In this document: piece by piece, positions 46,426 through 54,285 of the stretch
Layout of the letters: the number at the start of each line of letters is the position of its first letter
Position numbering within the stretch: the first letter of the stretch is position 1
Sequence record: ON568341.1
DNA: 64,000 nucleotides
Origin: Escherichia phage UE-S1
Reading direction: 5' to 3' (one strand)
Made by a program: the position numbers and the translations under genes
Notes under the pieces: model-generated
What the model saw: the letters and a program-made list of their open reading frames with translations, nothing else
Database searches by the model: none
What the model was told of the DNA's origin: nothing

Positions 46426-47607
46426 TTATGGTAAAATAATAGCTTGTAACGAACTCATACCCAATGTTGGAACACTCGCCTGTGGTGCTGGAGAATTCAA
46501 TTTTGGTGATGAAACCGCATATGACATTCCTGAACCCAAATCTGGATCAAAAACTACAGCACAATAATTCCCACTATATATAAGTCCATTCTTGTATCCT
46601 TGTGCACTTTGAATGCATTTCGTGAACGTACCAATATCTGTAGTGGCATTTATTAAGTTCCTCCCACGATAACCGCAGGTGTATATGAAATTATCATCGC
46701 CTATGTACATACTAGAATCCCCAGAAGAACTACATAGATACGACATATAAGCACGCATGTTTTTAGGAGCAACTGACAATGTACCTGCATAGAATTTATT
46801 ATTCGAACCCGTAATATTACCATCACCCAATGCACCAAAACTTCCCCAGCCAGTACCGTAATATCTCTTATCACTCAAAAATATAATACAGTTGTTATTA
46901 CACATCTTGATTTGATATATCAATGAAGGATCAATCCCAGGGAATGATTCAGTGAATGTTAGAACAGCCGGATCAGTACTAGCATTACATTGATGATATG
47001 TATTAGTACCAGCGGACAAGATTGTTCCATTAGCTAACAGAATTCTCGCAGTACCAGTACCAGCAGTACAAGCAACTGCACTTCCTGCACTTCCGGTGTA
47101 TATTTGTCTGAAAGTAAAGAAACCAACAGTTTTACTTCCCTGCCCACTCCAACCAGTATTATCAACTCCACACGCCCATACTGAACCATCTTGCATGATC
47201 ATCATTACACCAAAGCGTTCTATTGAAATATAAACAATCTTCGTTGTATCAACTGCACTAAATCTAGAAGTTATATCAGTCCATACCTTAACACTTACCG
47301 CCGTCGCACTGGAAGTAGGATCTTCACCAGCTATCATTATCCTCCCATTGTTAGTAAGATACATTGTCTGACTATAACCAGTACTACAAAACTTAACACT
47401 ATCAGTCTCTGGAACTTTTAACCACTCGTTGTAACGTGTTACGTTAGTGTTATTACCTAACTGATAATAGTTATTCATCCCAGATACATATAACACACCA
47501 TCCTTTATTAAACTATAAGTCGCACTATAGTCACTACAGGTATAACGTGTACCCACAGGTGGCTCAACGACGTTCCCGTACTTAACCATTCTCCCAAAAG
47601 GTAACAT
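46426..47607 (-). CDS. RCC1-like beta-propeller protein with conserved N-terminus (array member 3)
   Basis: MLPFGRMVKYGNVVEP; repeats NNYYQLGNN, DNTGWSGQGS, GSFGALGDGN. Confidence 0.7.
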   Translation of the reverse strand: MLPFGRMVKYGNVVEPPVGTRYTCSDYSATYSLIKDGVLYVSGMNNYYQLGNNTNVTRYNEWLKVPETDSVKFCSTGYSQTMYLTNNGRIMIAGEDPTSSATAVSVKVWTDITSRFSAVDTTKIVYISIERFGVMMIMQDGSVWACGVDNTGWSGQGSKTVGFFTFRQIYTGSAGSAVACTAGTGTARILLANGTILSAGTNTYHQCNASTDPAVLTFTESFPGIDPSLIYQIKMCNNNCIIFLSDKRYYGTGWGSFGALGDGNITGSNNKFYAGTLSVAPKNMRAYMSYLCSSSGDSSMYIGDDNFIYTCGYRGRNLINATTDIGTFTKCIQSAQGYKNGLIYSGNYCAVVFDPDLGSGMSYAVSSPKLNSPAPQASVPTLGMSSLQAIILP

Positions 47608-47642
47608 AATAAAATCTCCGTAATTAAATTATATAGTATTTA

Positions 47643-47676
47643 CAAAAAATACCAGTACATATTTCAGTACTGACCT
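47643..47676 (-). terminator. inter-cassette hairpin plus T-run
   Basis: CAGTAC-loop-GTACTG palindrome with T-run. Confidence 0.5.
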
Positions 47677-47680
47677 ATTA

Positions 47681-48802
47681 TTAAAAGGGCAACGGTAACT
47701 CAGTAAAAGTACTTACGTCCGGTAAACCATACATTAAATTAGCATCACCACAGTAATACCACTTCGTAGAATCATGTACCACCGATAAACGCTGTGCACA
47801 TAACACTTCCTGTATGTCATTAAACACCATCGGGACTAACTCATATGTATCTGCAAATGAAGATTCACTACCACTCGCATGAAAAGTATTTGTCCCAGCA
47901 TAAAATAACTGATTAGTGTTCTTACCCACAGCAAATGTTATCAAAACCCCATCATTCTCCCATAAAGAAGAAAACTTATCAACACTACCAGAAAGCTCTG
48001 TGTAAGTACTCGTAATGGCACTCGCCGCCGCCGCATTACCCATCTGTTTATTCAAGTTCTGTCCAGCAATAAAATATCTCGTTCGTGCACTAGAATCAGT
48101 ATATAATAACCCAGTGTTCGTAGTCATCATTCCAATGTCCTTAATCGTCATATCAGTCTGTGAATAACTTAGATACGAAGTTAAATTAACATTATTACCC
48201 AACGAACCGTTAGAACTCATGCCACAACGATGTAATATACCACTTGTATCAACGTAGATAGTACTAACTAAACTCGTATACAACTCTTGTACATTATTCG
48301 CAATAAACACAGCAGTCGCCTTATTACTAACCCCACCAAATGATAGGTTATTATCAAATCCCTTAGCGTATAATTGATTATTAGTAGTCAATAATCCAAT
48401 CGTGTAATAAGACATTTTCATATCCCTTACTGTACTCAAATCTACTGCCCCAAATTGATACGTAACATCTGTCCATTTGAAAATCTGTGCACTACCAACA
48501 CCACCCGTTTCAAACCATTTGTCACCACAGTACAATATGCGATTATCCTTAGTAAAGATAACTGTTAACAATCCACTACCACACGCAAACTTTACATCAC
48601 TTCTAACCTTCGTCCAATCAAGTACATAGGTAGTGGTGTTATTACCTATACCTAACTTGCCATAACGGTTATAACCACGCACCCATAAATCACCACTCTT
48701 AGTAATTAATAGTAATGCGTCTCCTGTACTTATTATTCGAAATCCCGAACTAGGATCAGGGGCAATATTCCCGTACTTAACCATTCTCCCAAAAGGTAAC
48801 AT
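47681..48802 (-). CDS. RCC1-like beta-propeller protein with conserved N-terminus (array member 2)
   Basis: MLPFGRMVKYGNIAPDP; repeats GYNRYGKLGIGNN, SSNGSLGNN. Confidence 0.7.
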   Translation of the reverse strand: MLPFGRMVKYGNIAPDPSSGFRIISTGDALLLITKSGDLWVRGYNRYGKLGIGNNTTTYVLDWTKVRSDVKFACGSGLLTVIFTKDNRILYCGDKWFETGGVGSAQIFKWTDVTYQFGAVDLSTVRDMKMSYYTIGLLTTNNQLYAKGFDNNLSFGGVSNKATAVFIANNVQELYTSLVSTIYVDTSGILHRCGMSSNGSLGNNVNLTSYLSYSQTDMTIKDIGMMTTNTGLLYTDSSARTRYFIAGQNLNKQMGNAAAASAITSTYTELSGSVDKFSSLWENDGVLITFAVGKNTNQLFYAGTNTFHASGSESSFADTYELVPMVFNDIQEVLCAQRLSVVHDSTKWYYCGDANLMYGLPDVSTFTELPLPF

Positions 48803-48837
48803 ATTTTCCTCCTTTATTCATTATACTATATTTAATA

Positions 48838-48869
48838 CAAAAAGAAATGCCAGTATCAAGTACTGGCAT
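48838..48869 (-). terminator. inter-cassette hairpin plus T-run
   Basis: ATGCCAGTA-TCAAG-TACTGGCAT. Confidence 0.55.
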
Positions 48870-48875
48870 ATTAAT

Positions 48876-50024
48876 TCATTGTATAAATGACATATCTACT
48901 TCTGTATAATTAAGAACGTTCTGTCCAGAAATACCACCCATTACTACTATTGCAAGGCCACAATAATATAATTTTCCAGTATCCGTAAGTATAAGTGATC
49001 CAGATGGACTGCGTACCAAATCACACGAACTATTAAAAGAAGTATAAGAAGGAGTATAGGAGTACTGATTATTATTATTACCAACACCTAATTGCCCAAA
49101 CCCATTCGATCCAGAAGCATATAGAACTTCATCTGCTTTGACAATATGTGATGCCATGTTACCAACACAAGTATATAGAGTATAAACTCCTGAACTCAAT
49201 AATGTCGGAGTTTTATATTGTATATCTGTAGATGTAGAAGTACCACCTGTACCAAATTCGTTCCCATATTGTGCACCGAACTGTTTGCCACAAGCGTACA
49301 AATTATTATCCGATTTGATAAAAAATGTACTCTGATAACTTACATTAAAATCTATAACATCCGAAGAAATCATCGTCACCCCAGTAATAGAAGTTTGATT
49401 ACCCGTGCCCAACTGGTAGTAATAGTTAAAACCACAACCCCATAAAGTATTATCTTCTCGCAAATAAATGTTACCAACTGCCTTTTTAACCGAAGTTATA
49501 GTATCTACTCTTTTGAATGTGTTAAAAGAATTAATGTTTGTACCATCACCAAATGATGATATGTTCGATATATTGTTAACTCCACAACAATACAATGTAC
49601 CATCTTTTGTTATCAAATTCACCTTCATATCATAAAAACTACTCATGTATTTTATATCAGAAACATTAACACCACTTGATGTTATCCACGTAGTACAGTC
49701 CGTCCACAAAGTTTTTCTATCAGTTACACCAGTGAATGCCTTCGTGTTACCAGTGATAAAAACTTTTCCAGTACCTTTCTCTTCATACAATTGACAATCA
49801 CTACTGTTATCTTCCAATAGAACTCGTTTAACATTCTCCGCACAAAGAATAAATTTACTCGATGCTACACCTGTACCAGTACCCCAATTCGTCGCAGAAG
49901 ATGCATACAACTTATCAGTATAAGTATCATGAAGATACATAGAATCACTGGAATATATTTTAAAACGCCCTTCTTTCTCAGGTATAATATTCCCGTACTT
50001 AACCATTCTCCCAAAAGGTAACAT
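48876..50024 (-). CDS. RCC1-like beta-propeller protein with conserved N-terminus (array member 1, most upstream)
   Basis: MLPFGRMVKYGNIIPE; repeats GFNYYYQLGTGN, GSNGFGQLGVGNN. Confidence 0.7.
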   Translation of the reverse strand: MLPFGRMVKYGNIIPEKEGRFKIYSSDSMYLHDTYTDKLYASSATNWGTGTGVASSKFILCAENVKRVLLEDNSSDCQLYEEKGTGKVFITGNTKAFTGVTDRKTLWTDCTTWITSSGVNVSDIKYMSSFYDMKVNLITKDGTLYCCGVNNISNISSFGDGTNINSFNTFKRVDTITSVKKAVGNIYLREDNTLWGCGFNYYYQLGTGNQTSITGVTMISSDVIDFNVSYQSTFFIKSDNNLYACGKQFGAQYGNEFGTGGTSTSTDIQYKTPTLLSSGVYTLYTCVGNMASHIVKADEVLYASGSNGFGQLGVGNNNNQYSYTPSYTSFNSSCDLVRSPSGSLILTDTGKLYYCGLAIVVMGGISGQNVLNYTEVDMSFIQ

Positions 50025-50066: not shown

Positions 50067-50095
50067 TTGACACCCTTTCAGTACTGTTGTACAAT
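50067..50095 (+). promoter_or_regulatory. sigma-70-type promoter (TTGACA-17-TACAAT)
   Basis: TTGACACCCTTTCAGTACTGTTGTACAAT in divergent intergenic region. Confidence 0.5.
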
Positions 50096-50120: not shown

Positions 50121-50348
50121 ATGACAAATACCCTTAAGTACTACCTCAATACTCTGCCCGACCTAGAGTACGGGAAGTTTCTCGCAGATAGTTCGTGGCT
50201 GATTGAGCTAAAAAAATATAATAGTCCCGGATGCACCCTTATGATGAACAATGCAATTGATACCCTTATAGTGAGTATTTTACATAGCAACATCTACGGG
50301 GATAACAATAAACAATTAACAAAAATCTTAGTACTGCTATCTCTATGA
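50121..50348 (+). CDS. small protein, tandem paralogue family C
   Basis: Track ORF trimmed to ATG after AGGAG; N-terminus MTNTLKYYLNTLP. Confidence 0.5.
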   Translation: MTNTLKYYLNTLPDLEYGKFLADSSWLIELKKYNSPGCTLMMNNAIDTLIVSILHSNIYGDNNKQLTKILVLLSL

Positions 50349-50557
50349 ACACTATGAGCACTGAACAGTTCTACATCAATGCACTACCAACTAAAAGTCT
50401 TCAAGAAAGCTTACTGTATACACAAAAGAATTTTAAAAACTTCAAACGTTGCCCTAAACTACTGAACTCGTACAGGAATAATATTATAAGAAATGTTTTA
50501 CAAGGAGAAGAAAGTATGCAATACTATCACATCCTTATACTTATATTGGAGTACTAA
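50345..50557 (+). CDS. small protein, family C
   Basis: ATGA overlap; ends LILILEY. Confidence 0.5.
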   Translation: MNTMSTEQFYINALPTKSLQESLLYTQKNFKNFKRCPKLLNSYRNNIIRNVLQGEESMQYYHILILILEY

Positions 50558-50558
50558 T

Positions 50559-50768
50559 ATGAATACTGAACATAAAGAATTCTACACCAAATACCTCAGT
50601 AACGAAGAACAATTGTTTCTAAGAAGTGTATCACCGGTAAGTACCAATACTCAATTCGGTAGAGATTGCTTTAATAATTGTATACGTAGTACCCTAGAAG
50701 CAATCGAATATAATAACAAAAATATTATGTACTCAGGTTTAATAGGACTAATATTCTTCTATGAATAA
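50559..50768 (+). CDS. small protein, family C
   Basis: Start in TACTAATATGAATA junction; MNTEHKEFYTKYL ... LIFFYE. Confidence 0.55.
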   Translation: MNTEHKEFYTKYLSNEEQLFLRSVSPVSTNTQFGRDCFNNCIRSTLEAIEYNNKNIMYSGLIGLIFFYE

Positions 50769-50955
50769 TCATAAAGATTTCTATGGTAGTAAACTACACA
50801 AACATGAACAGCTATCATTCTCTTTAGCACCACCTATGAGAAAGGATAATCTATATTATAATTACGATTTCAGGATGGCGACACGTTATGCAATAGAACA
50901 TCAGTTCCCTGAAACTAAGTACCGCTCTATCCTGAACCTCATCTTTAAGTTCTAA
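50761..50955 (+). CDS. small protein, family C
   Basis: MNNHKDFYGSKL ... LIFKF. Confidence 0.55.
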   Translation: MNNHKDFYGSKLHKHEQLSFSLAPPMRKDNLYYNYDFRMATRYAIEHQFPETKYRSILNLIFKF

Positions 50956-51002
50956 AAACAGCACCAGGGTCCGAGTACTTTAACATAGTAAGGCTAATTA
51001 CA

Positions 51003-51188
51003 ATGAATCATATACGCTACTATTACCAACAACTATCCGACAGGGACAAGTACAGCCACAATTCCCATGTATGGTACTACAAACGCGGCAGTATAAGAGA
51101 CAAACAACATTACTTCTGTATTTCTATTAAAGAAGCACTAACAACTAAGTACACGTACAGAGCAGTACTTAAACTAATCTCTATCTAA
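51003..51188 (+). CDS. small protein, family C-like
   Basis: Track ORF in array. Confidence 0.45.
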   Translation: MNHIRYYYQQLSDRDKYSHNSHVWYYKRGSIRDKQHYFCISIKEALTTKYTYRAVLKLISI

Positions 51189-51196
51189 GGAATACT

Positions 51197-51376
51197 ATGC
51201 AAGAATTCTATATAGAACATATAACCATAAAAGACCGTTTCATGTACCACACCTTCGTGAAATACTACAAACTGGGAACAAAAAGTACTAAAAATATTAA
51301 TCTCAATAGCTGCATTCATTCTGCACTAACAAAAGATAATCCCTTCAGGGAAATCCTCGCACTAGCATCTGTATAA
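51197..51376 (+). CDS. small protein, family C (59 aa, below track cut-off)
   Basis: ATG after AAGGAATACT; MQEFYIEHI. Confidence 0.45.
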   Translation: MQEFYIEHITIKDRFMYHTFVKYYKLGTKSTKNINLNSCIHSALTKDNPFREILALASV

Positions 51377-51386
51377 AGGAAACCAA

Positions 51387-52046
51387 ATGAAACTTAATGC
51401 ACACAGCAAACAATACCTTAAGCACTTTAAGTACCTCAACAGTATTCAAGCAGAATCTTTTACACCAGCATATACGTATCACCCTAATGTACTAAAGAAA
51501 CGAAATAAAAAGAAAAAATCCAGAAATGTTCTCGTATCTAAGAACCTCAAATCGTACTTGAAGAAAAATAATATAGCTCTTGCTTTTATTAATATCTATA
51601 ATACTGATTTAAAAGTATTGAGTACTAATACCAGCACAAAAGCACTAAAGAATGCATCTATCTATATACACATGGATAATATCCCGTGCACTATAATTCT
51701 ATCTTCCGGGAATGTATACTTCTTCGGGAATTGTAATAGCACCCATGATATCAGTACTGCACAATTCCAAATCGGAGATATGTACTGCATGGGTTCAGAA
51801 AAAATACACGATAATATGCACTTCTTCCAAAAGCAACGTACTAACGAAACTGATACAGTACTGCAATTCCTCAAAGAACTAGAACACAAAGAATTATCCG
51901 AGGAAGAAGAATTCATGTACAGTACTGTAATCGATAATCCAGGACTCTATAAAAACGCGTACAAACTAACAAAACATGTACAGGAACTTATCAGTACTGA
52001 TAAGAAAATTCATCACCTCATTACGTATATTTCAAACTATGTATAA
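51387..52046 (+). CDS. hypothetical protein (219 aa) within family C array
   Basis: Track ORF; basic N-terminal region. Confidence 0.5.
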   Translation: MKLNAHSKQYLKHFKYLNSIQAESFTPAYTYHPNVLKKRNKKKKSRNVLVSKNLKSYLKKNNIALAFINIYNTDLKVLSTNTSTKALKNASIYIHMDNIPCTIILSSGNVYFFGNCNSTHDISTAQFQIGDMYCMGSEKIHDNMHFFQKQRTNETDTVLQFLKELEHKELSEEEEFMYSTVIDNPGLYKNAYKLTKHVQELISTDKKIHHLITYISNYV

Positions 52047-52221
52047 AGAATACTACATAGAGAAACTCCCAATGCATCTACAACACCATATACCAAACGT
52101 TGCATTGGGCATAACCGAGCACGCAAAGATAATGTTCCAACAATGTACTAAGTACACGCTCATATACGATGATAATCCATATATGCTGTACTACGTAGTA
52201 ATGCTAACATTCAGGTACTAA
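52039..52221 (+). CDS. small protein, family C
   Basis: Track ORF trimmed; MYKEYYIEKLPMHL ... TFRY; ATGTATAA overlap. Confidence 0.55.
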   Translation: MYKEYYIEKLPMHLQHHIPNVALGITEHAKIMFQQCTKYTLIYDDNPYMLYYVVMLTFRY

Positions 52222-52222
52222 T

Positions 52223-52402
52223 ATGAATACTTATAAAGAATTCTACCTCTCGTACCTTAATTCCGATATAGTAACATCCAATACATTCAGTACTAAAATT
52301 ATCTATAATGAAGTAATGAAAGAATGTATTAAAGGTGCTATTAACCCTAAAGATACGTATGACTTGTACTATGCAGTACTAACCCTTGTTTTCACGAAAT
52401 AA
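52223..52402 (+). CDS. small protein, family C (59 aa, below track cut-off)
   Basis: TACTAATATGAATA junction; MNTYKEFYLSYL. Confidence 0.5.
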   Translation: MNTYKEFYLSYLNSDIVTSNTFSTKIIYNEVMKECIKGAINPKDTYDLYYAVLTLVFTK

Positions 52403-52410
52403 CACATAAT

Positions 52411-52602
52411 ATGAATAACCACAAAGAATACTACATAGAGAAACTCCCAATGTATCTCCAACACCTTCTACCAACAGAACCATTGCGTATAGAAAAAAAC
52501 TACGAAAAAGACTACTTCATTCAGTGCACTAAATCCTCGATATATATTGAAGACTATAATCGAGTACTGTATCACATCCTTTTACTAATATATAAGTACT
52601 AA
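52411..52602 (+). CDS. small protein, family C
   Basis: MNNHKEYYIEKLPMYL ... LLLIYKY. Confidence 0.55.
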   Translation: MNNHKEYYIEKLPMYLQHLLPTEPLRIEKNYEKDYFIQCTKSSIYIEDYNRVLYHILLLIYKY

Positions 52603-52603
52603 T

Positions 52604-52792
52604 ATGAATAACCACAAAGAATACTACACACAATTTCTCCCCAGCATTTTGGAACAATACGCCAGATATAAAGTCCCCCTCGATAACGATTTGGCAGTAC
52701 TGGGATTCAATAACTGCATAGAACGAAGTATAGAAAATAGTAATAGCTATGAACAATTATATAACACTATCCTACTTATATTCAGGTACTAA
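52604..52792 (+). CDS. small protein, family C
   Basis: MNNHKEYYTQFLP ... LLIFRY; TAATATG coupling. Confidence 0.55.
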   Translation: MNNHKEYYTQFLPSILEQYARYKVPLDNDLAVLGFNNCIERSIENSNSYEQLYNTILLIFRY

Positions 52793-52793
52793 T

Positions 52794-52982
52794 ATGTATA
52801 AAGAATACTACGCAAAATATTTCCCAATGTATCTCAGAACTAATCTATTAGATAAACCTCGCGATATCAATGCACAAAACGATAAAGTGTACTTTATTAT
52901 GTGCACTAAAGCATGTATACTAGATCATGACAGCTACCATCGAGTACTGTATCATACACTGTACCTAGCTTTCGTATACTAA
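52794..52982 (+). CDS. small protein, family C
   Basis: Track ORF trimmed; MYKEYYAKYFPMYL ... LAFVY. Confidence 0.55.
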   Translation: MYKEYYAKYFPMYLRTNLLDKPRDINAQNDKVYFIMCTKACILDHDSYHRVLYHTLYLAFVY

Positions 52983-52983
52983 A

Positions 52984-53042
52984 ATGTACTCCGGTTTAAT
53001 AGGACTAATATTCTTCTATGAATAATCATAAAGATTTCTACA
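52984..53042 (+). repeat. 59-bp near-identical direct repeat of 50728-50786 (gene-junction duplication)
   Basis: ATGTACTC(A/C)GGTTTAATAGGACTAATATTCTTCTATGAATAATCATAAAGATTTCTA present twice. Confidence 0.8.
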
Positions 53043-53197
53043 TAAGCCATCTGGATATAAACTCCCAAATGCTTATACTACTAAACACAATAGATTTCAA
53101 GGATAAGAAAAAGATCCAACAATTCATTGACCATACGGACCGTGCTGTGAACCAAAATTATATGTACTACATTCTCGCCCTAATATACAGGTACTAA
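53018..53197 (+). CDS. small protein, family C (59 aa, below track cut-off)
   Basis: MNNHKDFYISHL ... LALIYRY; preceded by duplicated junction. Confidence 0.5.
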   Translation: MNNHKDFYISHLDINSQMLILLNTIDFKDKKKIQQFIDHTDRAVNQNYMYYILALIYRY

Positions 53198-53198
53198 T

Positions 53199-53384
53199 AT
53201 GCATAGAGAATACTATATACAATTTGTTAAAGAAAACTACAAACACGCCGTCCCCGTAAACCCTTTAAATTCTAATGACCCAAGTACTATATTCTTGTTC
53301 CATGACGCAATACGTACAGTACTCAATACTAAAGATGAACAAGTGCAGTACGTATTCTTACTTTTACTTATATACAGACACTAA
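53199..53384 (+). CDS. small protein, family C
   Basis: MHREYYIQFV ... LLLIYRH. Confidence 0.55.
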   Translation: MHREYYIQFVKENYKHAVPVNPLNSNDPSTIFLFHDAIRTVLNTKDEQVQYVFLLLLIYRH

Positions 53385-53397
53385 AGCACTAACTAAT

Positions 53398-53598
53398 ATG
53401 AATAAAGAATATAAAGACTTCTATATAAGTAAACTAAAAGAAAATGAACAAGCATGGATTCAACCACTAATAATACTTCCATTTAATAGATATTCATTGA
53501 ACCGATGTACCGAGATTGCTATAGACCCTTGTCCTATTAAAGAGAATGTACAATACAATCAGTACTACTATATCTTAATGCTTATATATAGGAAGTAA
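53398..53598 (+). CDS. small protein, family C
   Basis: Track ORF trimmed; MNKEYKDFYISKL ... LMLIYRK. Confidence 0.55.
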   Translation: MNKEYKDFYISKLKENEQAWIQPLIILPFNRYSLNRCTEIAIDPCPIKENVQYNQYYYILMLIYRK

Positions 53599-54285
53599 TT
53601 AAACACATATAGACAGGGGAAGCTCCGTAGTGGAAGCATTATACAGGCTTTAACATATGTTGCATATGTTAAAATTCAGCCTGGACAAATGCGATCACTA
53701 GGATTCTCCCCAGGCTAAACCCCGTAACTCTACAGAGAAGCCAATAGCTTCTCTTTGTCATAGGTAGTCATAAGTAATCATATATAAACATTTAAGTAAT
53801 CATTCATACGCACGGTAGTGATTAGTATTGAGTACTAGAGTACAGGAATGTTCACGTTTAATCAAGAACGTAGCAGTACTGCCCCAAAAGTATTCAGTAC
53901 TGAAGGTGTCGATATCCCACTAAGTAGGCAGAGGAAGTCTGCCGTACTTTGTAGTTTCCAAGCTCCTTTTCCATTTTTCAAATTACATCAAATGTATTCA
54001 AAAGTAATCACGTAATGATTAGTACTGAATTATTACTTTCACCTTAATTCCAAATACTCTTTTACCCTTCGGGGAAAATCCCATTACCCCTTGAGGCTCC
54101 AGCAAAAAGTTGGAAAGTACTCCATCGTAAATCTGGATCGTAAAAATTTTGGAGTACCTATGAAATAAAAGTTGGATCTTCGAAAGTTGAAATTTACGTT
54201 GGGACATATAGGATTGATGGGATATAATGAGTTTTGTAGAGATACAGATTATACGATTTCAGTACTGAATAATGAAAGAAAGCTA

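What the first reader, a model, noticed from the sequence alone, without database searches (positions are those of the whole stretch)
52984..53042. 59-bp gene-junction duplication leaves a 13-codon gene remnant: a recombination scar inside the small-gene array
The sequence at 50728-50786 (3-prime end of one family member plus the start of the next) recurs at 52984-53042 with one mismatch. At the second site it encodes only an orphan MYSGLIGLIFFYE mini-ORF before the next gene start. This is direct evidence that array members have been exchanged or duplicated by recombination at gene junctions.
Basis: seen in the sequence. Interest (0 to 1): 0.55.

Follow-up and report, generated by a model that had tools for sequence, protein, structure and literature searches.

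The report
Gene remnant in phage small-gene array
A 57-base repeat in a jumbo E. coli phage marks where one member of a tandem family of tiny genes was lost, leaving its last 13 codons, which were rewritten from a sister copy 2.3 kb upstream; this is an ordinary but clearly documented recombination scar.

Summary
The repeat is real. Window 50727-50783 and 52984-53040 match at 56 of 57 bases, where chance predicts no such match.

The window is an Asteriusvirus-type jumbo coliphage. The repeat lies in a tandem array of 59-75-aa genes, most of them phrog_11711 (function unknown).

In 12 related genomes, a full 68-aa gene ("A2") sits exactly where the mini-ORF is, between the same two neighbours. 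So the 13 codons mark a roughly 174-nt loss of a resident gene.

The surviving 57 nt do not carry A2's own sequence. At all four informative positions they match this genome's A1/g4 junction. From 53041 onward the sequence is the native downstream gene (96% identical to TH47).

Best reading: a gene-conversion or ectopically templated repair patch, combined with a deletion. The right edge lies in the conserved gene start. The left edge shows no homology.

The scar is base-for-base identical in at least 10 independent assemblies, so it is fixed in a sublineage and is not an artefact.

It keeps both junction forms used throughout the array (TAA-N-ATG upstream, 8-nt overlap downstream), so it may still relay translation into the next gene. 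That is untested. This is a known kind of event and of low-to-moderate interest.

The parts
50121..53598 (+). Tandem array of 15 genes, 14 of them small (59-75 aa) plus one of 219 aa, with the remnant. All are on the + strand and tightly packed, with junctions of -8, -4, +1 or +8 to +12 nt.
   Evidence: ORF list and junction table. All six tested members of 59-69 aa match phrog_11711 (unknown function). The 61-aa g5 and the 75-aa g1 matched no PHROG, and the 219-aa gene matches phrog_29152. There are no Pfam hits.
50559..50768 (+). A1: full-length 69-aa family member ending ...NIMYSGLIGLIFFYE. It is the donor gene of the repeat.
   Evidence: Orthologs are 91-99% identical in type-I relatives.
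50727..50783 (+). Donor copy of the 57-nt repeat: the last 13 codons of A1 plus the first 7 to 8 codons of g4, with an 8-nt ATGAATAA overlap.
50761..50955 (+). g4 (MNNHKDFYGSKL...), the gene that natively follows A1.
52794..52982 (+). g12 (MYKEYYAKYFPMYL...LAFVY), the gene upstream of the scar. Its end, TAC TAA A, is of the type seen in genomes that carry A2.
52983..52983 (+). A single A, the first base of the A2-type spacer (TAA AGAGGCCAAT ATG in relatives). The left breakpoint lies between 52983 and 52984.
52984..53040 (+). The 57-nt patch, identical to this clade's A1/g4 junction except for a private C at 52992.
52984..53025 (+). Mini-ORF MYSGLIGLIFFYE*, the 13-codon remnant at the position of gene A2.
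   Evidence: Full-length A2 occupies this position in L001-L003, L006, L018-L020 and L029-L033.
53036..53040 (+). Right crossover interval (TTCTA), between the last base diagnostic for A1/g4 (53035) and the first base diagnostic for g13 (53041).
53018..53197 (+). g13, the 59-aa allele. Its first 7 to 8 codons are of g4 type (MNNHKDFY) and the rest is the native gene (96.2% identical to TH47).

Best explanation
The scar is a compound recombination scar at the position of a lost paralog. An ancestor of this phage sublineage carried the arrangement g12 - spacer AGAGGCCAAT - A2 (68 aa) - g13, as many relatives still do. It also carried the paralogous pair A1-g4 about 2.3 kb upstream. In this sublineage two changes occurred. 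The A2/g13 junction was overwritten from the A1/g4 junction, either by gene conversion or by repair of a break using the upstream paralog as an ectopic template. In addition, the spacer and the first 55 codons of A2 (174 nt in TH47 coordinates) were lost. The right end of the patch resolved by homology inside the conserved gene start (ATGAATAAYYATAAAGAWTTCTAC). The left end is a homology-free join between the base after g12's stop codon and codon 57 of the A1-type sequence. This could have been one event (break in A2, invasion of A1/g4, short synthesis, end-joining) or two (conversion, then deletion). The data do not say which. What is shown: the positional orthology, the A1/g4 origin of the 57 nt, both boundaries, and inheritance of the scar. 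What is inferred: the molecular pathway. A further inference is that the 36 nt upstream of g13's ATG survive because g13's start codon lies inside the end of A2. A deletion that removed that end would therefore also remove g13's start codon. The remnant keeps a stop+1-nt ATG and the 8-nt overlap, so ribosomes could still be passed from g12 to g13.
For: Position. Twelve genomes or contigs have a full A2 directly between a g12 homolog and g13 (TH47, fEgEco12, EC.P1, CMSTMSU, L018-L020, L029-L033). Every other carrier of the 59-aa g13 allele has A2 upstream. A close relative, L021, still has the A2 spacer and start after g12. The window's TAC TAA A matches the A2-bearing haplotype, not the A2-less one (TTC TAA G).

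Sequence origin. The 57 nt differ from this clade's A1/g4 junction only at position 9. They differ from the TH47-type A2/g13 junctions at positions 9, 13, 43, 44 and 52. At 13 and 52 the scar differs from all seven A2/g13 junctions tabulated, and at all four informative positions it has the state found in all 13 A1/g4 junctions examined. Meanwhile the adjoining g13 body and g14 are each 96.2% identical to TH47.

Reality and age. The scar is identical in L011, L012, L022, L023 and L024, and in the ends of k=31 unitigs L013-L017, which start and stop inside the two repeat copies.

General mechanism. Thirty-six homology breakpoints lie a median of 18 nt from a gene start, against a random mean of 74 (0 of 20000 permutations did as well). 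Two other gene losses in the same array are clean joins within 11-15 nt of shared junction sequence.

Grammar. Six junctions have the TAA-N-ATG form and three have an 8-nt overlap. The mini-ORF uses one of each.
Against: No intermediate was found, meaning a full-length A gene at site 2 that already carries the A1/g4-type end. The order and number of events are therefore unknown. The left junction shows no microhomology with any sampled A2-type ancestor, so its origin stays unexplained. The g12-scar-g13 module is almost invariant among carriers: 0 of 189, 0 of 57 and 1 of 157 variable sites. Conservation therefore says nothing about selection on the mini-ORF. The mini-ORF has no Shine-Dalgarno sequence of its own. 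The window clade's A1 carries TTC (F) at position 29, like A2 and unlike other A1 genes. This could be a point mutation or a trace of exchange in the opposite direction.
Confidence: 0.72

Rival explanations
1. Plain in-situ deletion remnant. A2 lost its first 55 codons, and the surviving 13 codons are A2's own sequence. On this view the near-identity to A1/g4 is shared ancestry, not copying.
For: A2 and A1 are close paralogs (83-89% identical over the whole gene). TH47-type A2 already shares 52 of 57 bases with the scar. The nearest sampled A2 carriers are not very close relatives of the window.
Against: Four of the five differences from TH47-type A2/g13 junctions fall at the sites where A1/g4 differs from A2/g13, and the scar carries the A1/g4 base at each. 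The flanking g13 is 96.2% identical to TH47, which predicts about 2 random differences in 57 nt, not 4 directed ones. In L019, which has both A1 and A2, the two junctions are not homogenised.
Confidence: 0.12
2. De novo duplication. A 57-59-nt piece of the A1/g4 junction was inserted between g12 and g13 in a genome that never had a gene there.
For: The closest relatives with the same A1 allele (L025-L027) have neither A2 nor the scar at this site. The 57 nt are of A1/g4 type.
Against: Both flanks are of the A2-bearing haplotype. On the left, g12 ends TAC TAA A, whereas A2-less genomes have TTC TAA GAGAACAAT. On the right is the 59-aa g13 allele, which everywhere else follows a full A2. The A2-less genomes carry a different g13 allele (61 aa, about 80% identical) with its own spacer and start codon. 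L021, a close relative, retains the start of A2 at this site.
Confidence: 0.08
3. Selected functional element. On this view the mini-ORF is kept because it relays translational coupling from g12 to g13, or because the 13-aa hydrophobic peptide itself acts. This adds to the origin story rather than replacing it.
For: The remnant begins exactly with an in-frame ATG 1 nt after the upstream stop and ends in the 8-nt overlap with g13. Both are the array's standard junction forms. g13's ATG lies inside the end of the A gene and has no well-placed Shine-Dalgarno sequence (AGGA at -17). The scar is unchanged in at least 10 samples.
Against: The flanking genes are equally invariant, so there is no sign of extra constraint. 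No RNA structure was found (z = -0.51) and no Rfam family. The exact fit of the endpoints was noticed after the fact. No expression data exist.
Confidence: 0.2
4. Assembly artefact: a chimeric join at a repeat.
For: A 48-nt exact repeat does break k=31 assembly graphs (L013-L017 end inside it).
Against: Five independent assemblies from different projects and assemblers read straight through the scar with identical sequence (L011, L012, L022-L024).
Confidence: 0.01

Closest known systems
Gene-conversion or ectopic-repair tracts between tandem paralogs (concerted evolution of multigene families)
   Same: A short tract is nearly identical to a paralog in the same genome while disagreeing with orthologs in relatives. 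Its edges are abrupt. One edge lies in sequence conserved among family members.
   Different: Here the tract is coupled to the loss of most of the recipient gene, and its other edge is a homology-free join. Classic conversion leaves both genes intact.
Modular shuffling in hyperplastic regions of T4-type phages through PeSL cassettes (Arbiol et al. 2010, PMC2839356; Comeau et al. 2014, PMC4122927)
   Same: Both involve blocks of small, nonessential genes of unknown function. These genes are gained, lost and swapped between close relatives by recombination at short repeated sequences at gene boundaries.
   Different: PeSLs are intergenic promoter-plus-terminator cassettes. Here the recombining sequence is coding: the conserved first 8 or so codons and last codons of paralogous genes. 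The 57-mer contains no promoter-like hexamer pair (the scan does list one across 52927-52955 and another starting at 53052). No stem-loop was found. The phage is an Asteriusvirus, not a T4-type phage.
Pseudogene remnants left where overlapping, translationally coupled genes make clean deletion impossible
   Same: The downstream gene's start codon lies inside the upstream gene's last codons (ATGAATAA). The stub that is kept contains that start region.
   Different: Coupling has not been demonstrated for these genes. The stub also acquired, or kept, its own ATG placed 1 nt after the preceding stop.

Membership tests
phrog_11711 small-protein family (as a truncated member) | Match to the family profile over about 60 residues | tested here: not met
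   Six array members of 59-69 aa, including the remnant's neighbours, match (E 5e-6 to 7e-27). The remnant has only 13 codons, identical to the C-terminus of A1. It is a fragment, not a member.
Deletion remnant (pseudogene) of a resident gene | A full-length ortholog at the same position, between the same neighbours, in related genomes | tested here: met
   A full 68-aa A2 lies directly between a g12 homolog and g13 in 12 genomes or contigs.
Gene-conversion or ectopic-template tract | Identity to a paralog in the same genome exceeds identity to orthologs, at the diagnostic sites | tested here: met
   The tract matches its own A1/g4 junction at 56 of 57 bases and the best A2/g13 junction at 52 of 57. 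All four informative sites carry the A1/g4 state. The flanking g13 is 96.2% identical to TH47.
Gene-conversion or ectopic-template tract | Both tract boundaries lie within homologous sequence | tested here: not met
   The right boundary lies in the shared TTCTA of the gene start. The left boundary (52983|52984) has no homology to any sampled precursor. A deletion or end-joining step is therefore also needed.
PeSL-type regulatory cassette (T4-type hyperplastic regions) | A sigma-70-like early promoter plus a stem-loop terminator in an intergenic repeat | tested here: not met
   No promoter-like hexamer pair lies within 52984-53040, although the scan lists one across 52927-52955 just upstream and one starting at 53052. 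Promoter-like counts are not above those of shuffled sequence (21 found vs 22.5 expected). The fold z-score is -0.51. The repeat is coding sequence.
Translationally coupled gene pair | Stop and start codons overlap or lie within a few nucleotides | tested here: met
   TAA-A-ATG upstream and the 8-nt ATGAATAA overlap downstream.
Translationally coupled gene pair | Downstream translation depends on upstream translation | not testable with these tools
   This needs reporter fusions or ribosome profiling.

The most novel reading that the evidence does not exclude
The 13-codon stub is not junk. It would be a selected relay ORF that keeps the chain of termination-reinitiation running from g12 into g13 after the loss of A2. 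On that view only deletions that recreate the array's junction forms (TAA-N-ATG ... ATGAATAA) can persist. Gene loss in overlapping, coupled phage arrays would then be constrained by translational syntax.
Probability: 0.18. Interest if true: 0.4.

Novelty: new member of a known kind. Interest (0 to 1): 0.25.

Why it matters
The scar gives a dated, base-resolved example of how jumbo-phage accessory gene arrays turn over. Paralogs are lost, converted and swapped at the conserved first and last codons of each gene, and overlapping starts can force a stub to remain. It is useful as a marker for one Asteriusvirus sublineage. It also warns assemblers, because the 48-nt exact repeat breaks k=31 graphs. 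Finally, it sets up a simple test of translational coupling in such arrays. It does not reveal a new kind of system.

Tried and rejected
- **Scar junctions in other collections.** The left junction was not found in IMG/VR. The right junction was not found there either. Neither junction was found in JGI metagenome contigs. IMG/VR held only phage 121Q as a relative.
- **Search for an intermediate.** I looked for a full-length A gene at site 2 with the converted end, using homologs of g13 and their contigs. Only unconverted A2 genes turned up.
- **Microhomology at the left junction.** I tried TH47-type, A1-type and A2-less precursor sequences. None reproduces CTAAA|ATG without an extra change.
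- **Tandem duplication of 50727-52983 followed by collapse.** This would create the same left junction, but no genome shows the duplicated intermediate, so it is kept only as a variant of the main model.
- **Regulatory or RNA readings.** The promoter and terminator scan was not above shuffled sequence. There was no significant fold and no Rfam family.
- **Protein function.** There are no Pfam hits for the small proteins. PHROG annotates the family as unknown function.
- **Literature.** The papers on fEgEco12 and UE-S1 do not describe this array.
- **Selection on the stub.** Polymorphism among carriers is too low to be informative.

Full report
**Observation.** Reading the two sites and aligning them shows a 57-nt direct repeat at 50727-50783 and 52984-53040. 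There is one mismatch, at position 9 (TCA vs TCC). The repeat finder reports the same pair at 98% identity (family D3). A pattern search with up to 3 mismatches finds exactly these two sites in the 64-kb window and none in 100 shuffles. Other junctions of the array, taken in the same register, are 61-73% identical. The pair is therefore exceptional even for this paralog family. The second copy encodes MYSGLIGLIFFYE* (52984-53025). It starts 1 nt after the stop of the preceding gene and overlaps the ATG of the next gene (53018) by 8 nt.

**Context.** The region matches Asteriusvirus jumbo coliphages (PBECO4, 121Q, SP27, phAPEC6, TH47 and others) at about 88-94% identity. The downstream gene g13 is 100% identical to UES1_223 of Escherichia phage UE-S1. 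From 50121 to 53598 there are 15 genes on the + strand plus the remnant. All six tested members of 59-69 aa match phrog_11711, a family of unknown function. The 61-aa g5 and the 75-aa g1 matched no PHROG, and the 219-aa gene matches phrog_29152. The small proteins have no Pfam hits. Junctions follow a tight pattern: six are TAA-N-ATG, three are 8-nt overlaps (ATGAATAA or ATGTATAA), one is ATGA, and the rest are spacers of 8-12 nt, three of them with an AGGA-like Shine-Dalgarno sequence. The published genome papers for relatives do not discuss this array.

**What sits at this position in relatives.** Short queries across each site against annotated phages showed that relatives fall into classes. 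I read the sequences directly, with these results:
- **Full gene present.** TH47, fEgEco12, EC.P1, CMSTMSU, the metagenomic loci L018-L020 and the Logan contigs L029-L033 have a complete 68-aa gene (A2, MNEQKEFYTK...YSGV[IM]GLIFFYE). It lies directly between a g12 homolog and g13, preceded by the spacer AGAGGCCAAT.
- **Neither gene nor remnant.** JP4, ELP-22, SHEFM2K, phAPEC6, WPEC3 and L025-L027 have neither. In these genomes g12 ends TTC TAA GAGAACAAT, and a different 61-aa g13 allele starts with its own ATGCAT.
- **The 59-aa g13 allele.** Every other carrier of the window's 59-aa g13 allele (TH47, L029-L033) has a full A2 upstream.
- **A broken A2 in a close relative.** L021, which carries the window's A1 allele, still has the A2 spacer and start after g12. 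There it is fused to the body of a third paralog (A3) and has a stop at codon 3.
- **The window's left flank.** It reads TAC TAA A, which is the A2-bearing type.

The mini-ORF therefore occupies the position of the 3' end of A2. Relative to TH47, 174 nt are missing (L001 1632-1805): the spacer GAGGCCAAT plus codons 1-55.

**Where the surviving sequence comes from.** A variation table covers 13 A1/g4 junctions, 7 A2/g13 junctions and 6 scars. The scar equals this clade's A1/g4 junction except for a private C at position 9. It differs from the TH47-type A2/g13 junctions at positions 9, 13, 43, 44 and 52. At 13 and 52 it differs from every A2/g13 junction tabulated. At all four informative sites it carries the state found in every A1/g4 junction. 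The five further A2/g13 junctions in L029-L033 also have G13, CT43-44 and A52. From 53041 onward the scar follows g13, not g4. The g13 body and g14 are each 96.2% identical to TH47, which would predict about two random differences in 57 nt rather than four directed ones. The 57 nt were therefore copied from A1/g4. The right edge of the copied tract lies within TTCTA (53036-53040), inside the start motif ATGAATAAYYATAAAGAWTTCTAC shared by family members. The left edge (52983|52984) shows no microhomology with any sampled precursor.

**Mechanism.** The data require two things. One is transfer of A1/g4 sequence to the A2/g13 junction. The other is loss of the rest of A2 through a homology-free join. 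This could be a single repair event: a break in A2, the right end invading the upstream paralog, short synthesis, then end-joining to the resected left end. It could also be a conversion followed by a deletion. No intermediate was found, so the pathway remains an inference. A tandem duplication of 50727-52983 followed by collapse would give the same left junction, but it is not supported by any genome examined.

**Is it real and inherited?** The identical scar is read through in two Logan contigs (L011, L012) and three ENA assemblies (L022 of 344 kb, L023 of 342 kb, and L024). Five k=31 unitigs (L013-L017) begin with the last 30 nt of the site-1 copy. They end exactly 31 nt after the scar's private C, which is what a de Bruijn graph does at a 48-nt exact repeat. 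The scar is therefore not an artefact, and it is fixed in a sublineage sampled in at least 10 runs. The carriers differ markedly elsewhere in the array. The g12-scar-g13 module itself is nearly invariant, with 0 of 189, 0 of 57 and 1 of 157 variable sites, so conservation gives no evidence for or against selection.

**The general claim about junction recombination.** Thirty-six distinct homology breakpoints between the window and the related loci held at that point (L001-L028) lie a median of 18 nt from a gene start. The random mean is 74 nt, and none of 20000 permutations did as well. One caveat applies: the breakpoints are not independent, and the ends of BLAST alignments are drawn toward conserved motifs. 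Two other gene-content differences in this array are clean joins inside shared junction sequence. One is GTACTGAAACT at the g5/g6 boundary, where four genes are absent relative to L021. The other is CTATATAAGTAAACT at the start of g15. The scar itself is atypical, because only its right edge follows that rule.

**Possible consequence.** g13's ATG lies inside the last codons of the A gene and has no well-placed Shine-Dalgarno sequence (AGGA at -17). A deletion of A2 that removes its 3' end would therefore also remove g13's start. The stub keeps a stop+1-nt ATG upstream and the 8-nt overlap downstream, which are the array's two standard junction forms. Ribosomes finishing g12 could therefore reinitiate on the stub and then on g13. 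This follows from general knowledge of termination-reinitiation coupling in bacteria and phages and has not been tested here. No promoter-like hexamer pair lies within the 57-mer (the scan lists one across 52927-52955 and one starting at 53052). No RNA fold (z = -0.51) and no Rfam family were found there.

**Verdict.** The feature is a compound scar, consisting of a gene-conversion or ectopic-repair patch plus a 174-nt loss, at the site of a paralog that relatives still have. This is a known kind of event in a family of unknown function. It is of modest interest, mainly as a clean example of array turnover and as a test case for translational coupling.

Noticed in passing
window 53018-53197: The g13 protein is 100% identical to UES1_223 of Escherichia phage UE-S1 (358,076 bp). 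The window is probably UE-S1 or a near relative. The closest assemblies (L022, L024) are 98.6-99.5% identical up to 53437 and then drop to about 85%.
   Followed up: partly
window 51166-51176 (g5/g6 boundary): Four small genes present in L021, ELP-22, SHEFM2K and WPEC3 are absent here. The join lies inside the shared C-terminal coding motif GTACTGAAACT, so this is a clean homology-mediated loss.
   Followed up: partly
window 53398-53437 (start of g15): g15 is a hybrid. Its first 13 or so codons come from the MNKE(Y/H)KDFYI(S/R)KL gene and the rest from the ...KLKENEQAW gene of relatives. The crossover lies in CTATATAAGTAAACT. The third A-type paralog (A3, ...YSGIIGILFLYE), found in most relatives, is missing from the window.
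   Followed up: partly
L021 7822-8038: In this close relative, the A2 spacer and start codon after g12 are fused to the body of A3, with g13 and g14 deleted. Codon 3 is a stop (ATG AAC TAA). This is a second, independent broken A-type gene at the same site.
   Followed up: partly
L013-L017 (Logan unitigs): All five unitigs start with the last 30 nt of the site-1 repeat copy and end 31 nt after the scar's private C. The 48-nt exact repeat fragments k=31 assemblies of these phages.
   Followed up: yes
L008 4056-4259; L022 6853-7056: Homologs of g10 carry small in-frame tandem codon duplications: EYYIEYYIE in SHEFM2K and EKDYEKDYEKDY in L022. Slippage therefore also contributes to variation in this family.
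   Followed up: no
window 46426-50024, minus strand: Three tandem paralogs of 373-393 aa all start with MLPFGRMVKYGN. Relatives annotate them as RCC1-like 'regulator of chromosome condensation' proteins. They form a second paralog array directly upstream, and its copy number varies among relatives.
   Followed up: no
window 50067-50095 and 53924-53943: A near-consensus sigma-70-like site (TTGACA-17-TACAAT) precedes the first array gene, and a terminator-like hairpin follows the array. This fits a single transcription unit, but the counts of such sites are not above those in shuffled sequence.
   Followed up: no
window 50755-50757 (A1 codon ...I-F-FYE): A1 in the window's clade has TTC (F) where other A1 genes have TAC or TAT (Y) and all A2 genes have TTC. 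This may be a trace of A2-to-A1 exchange, or simply a point mutation.
   Followed up: no
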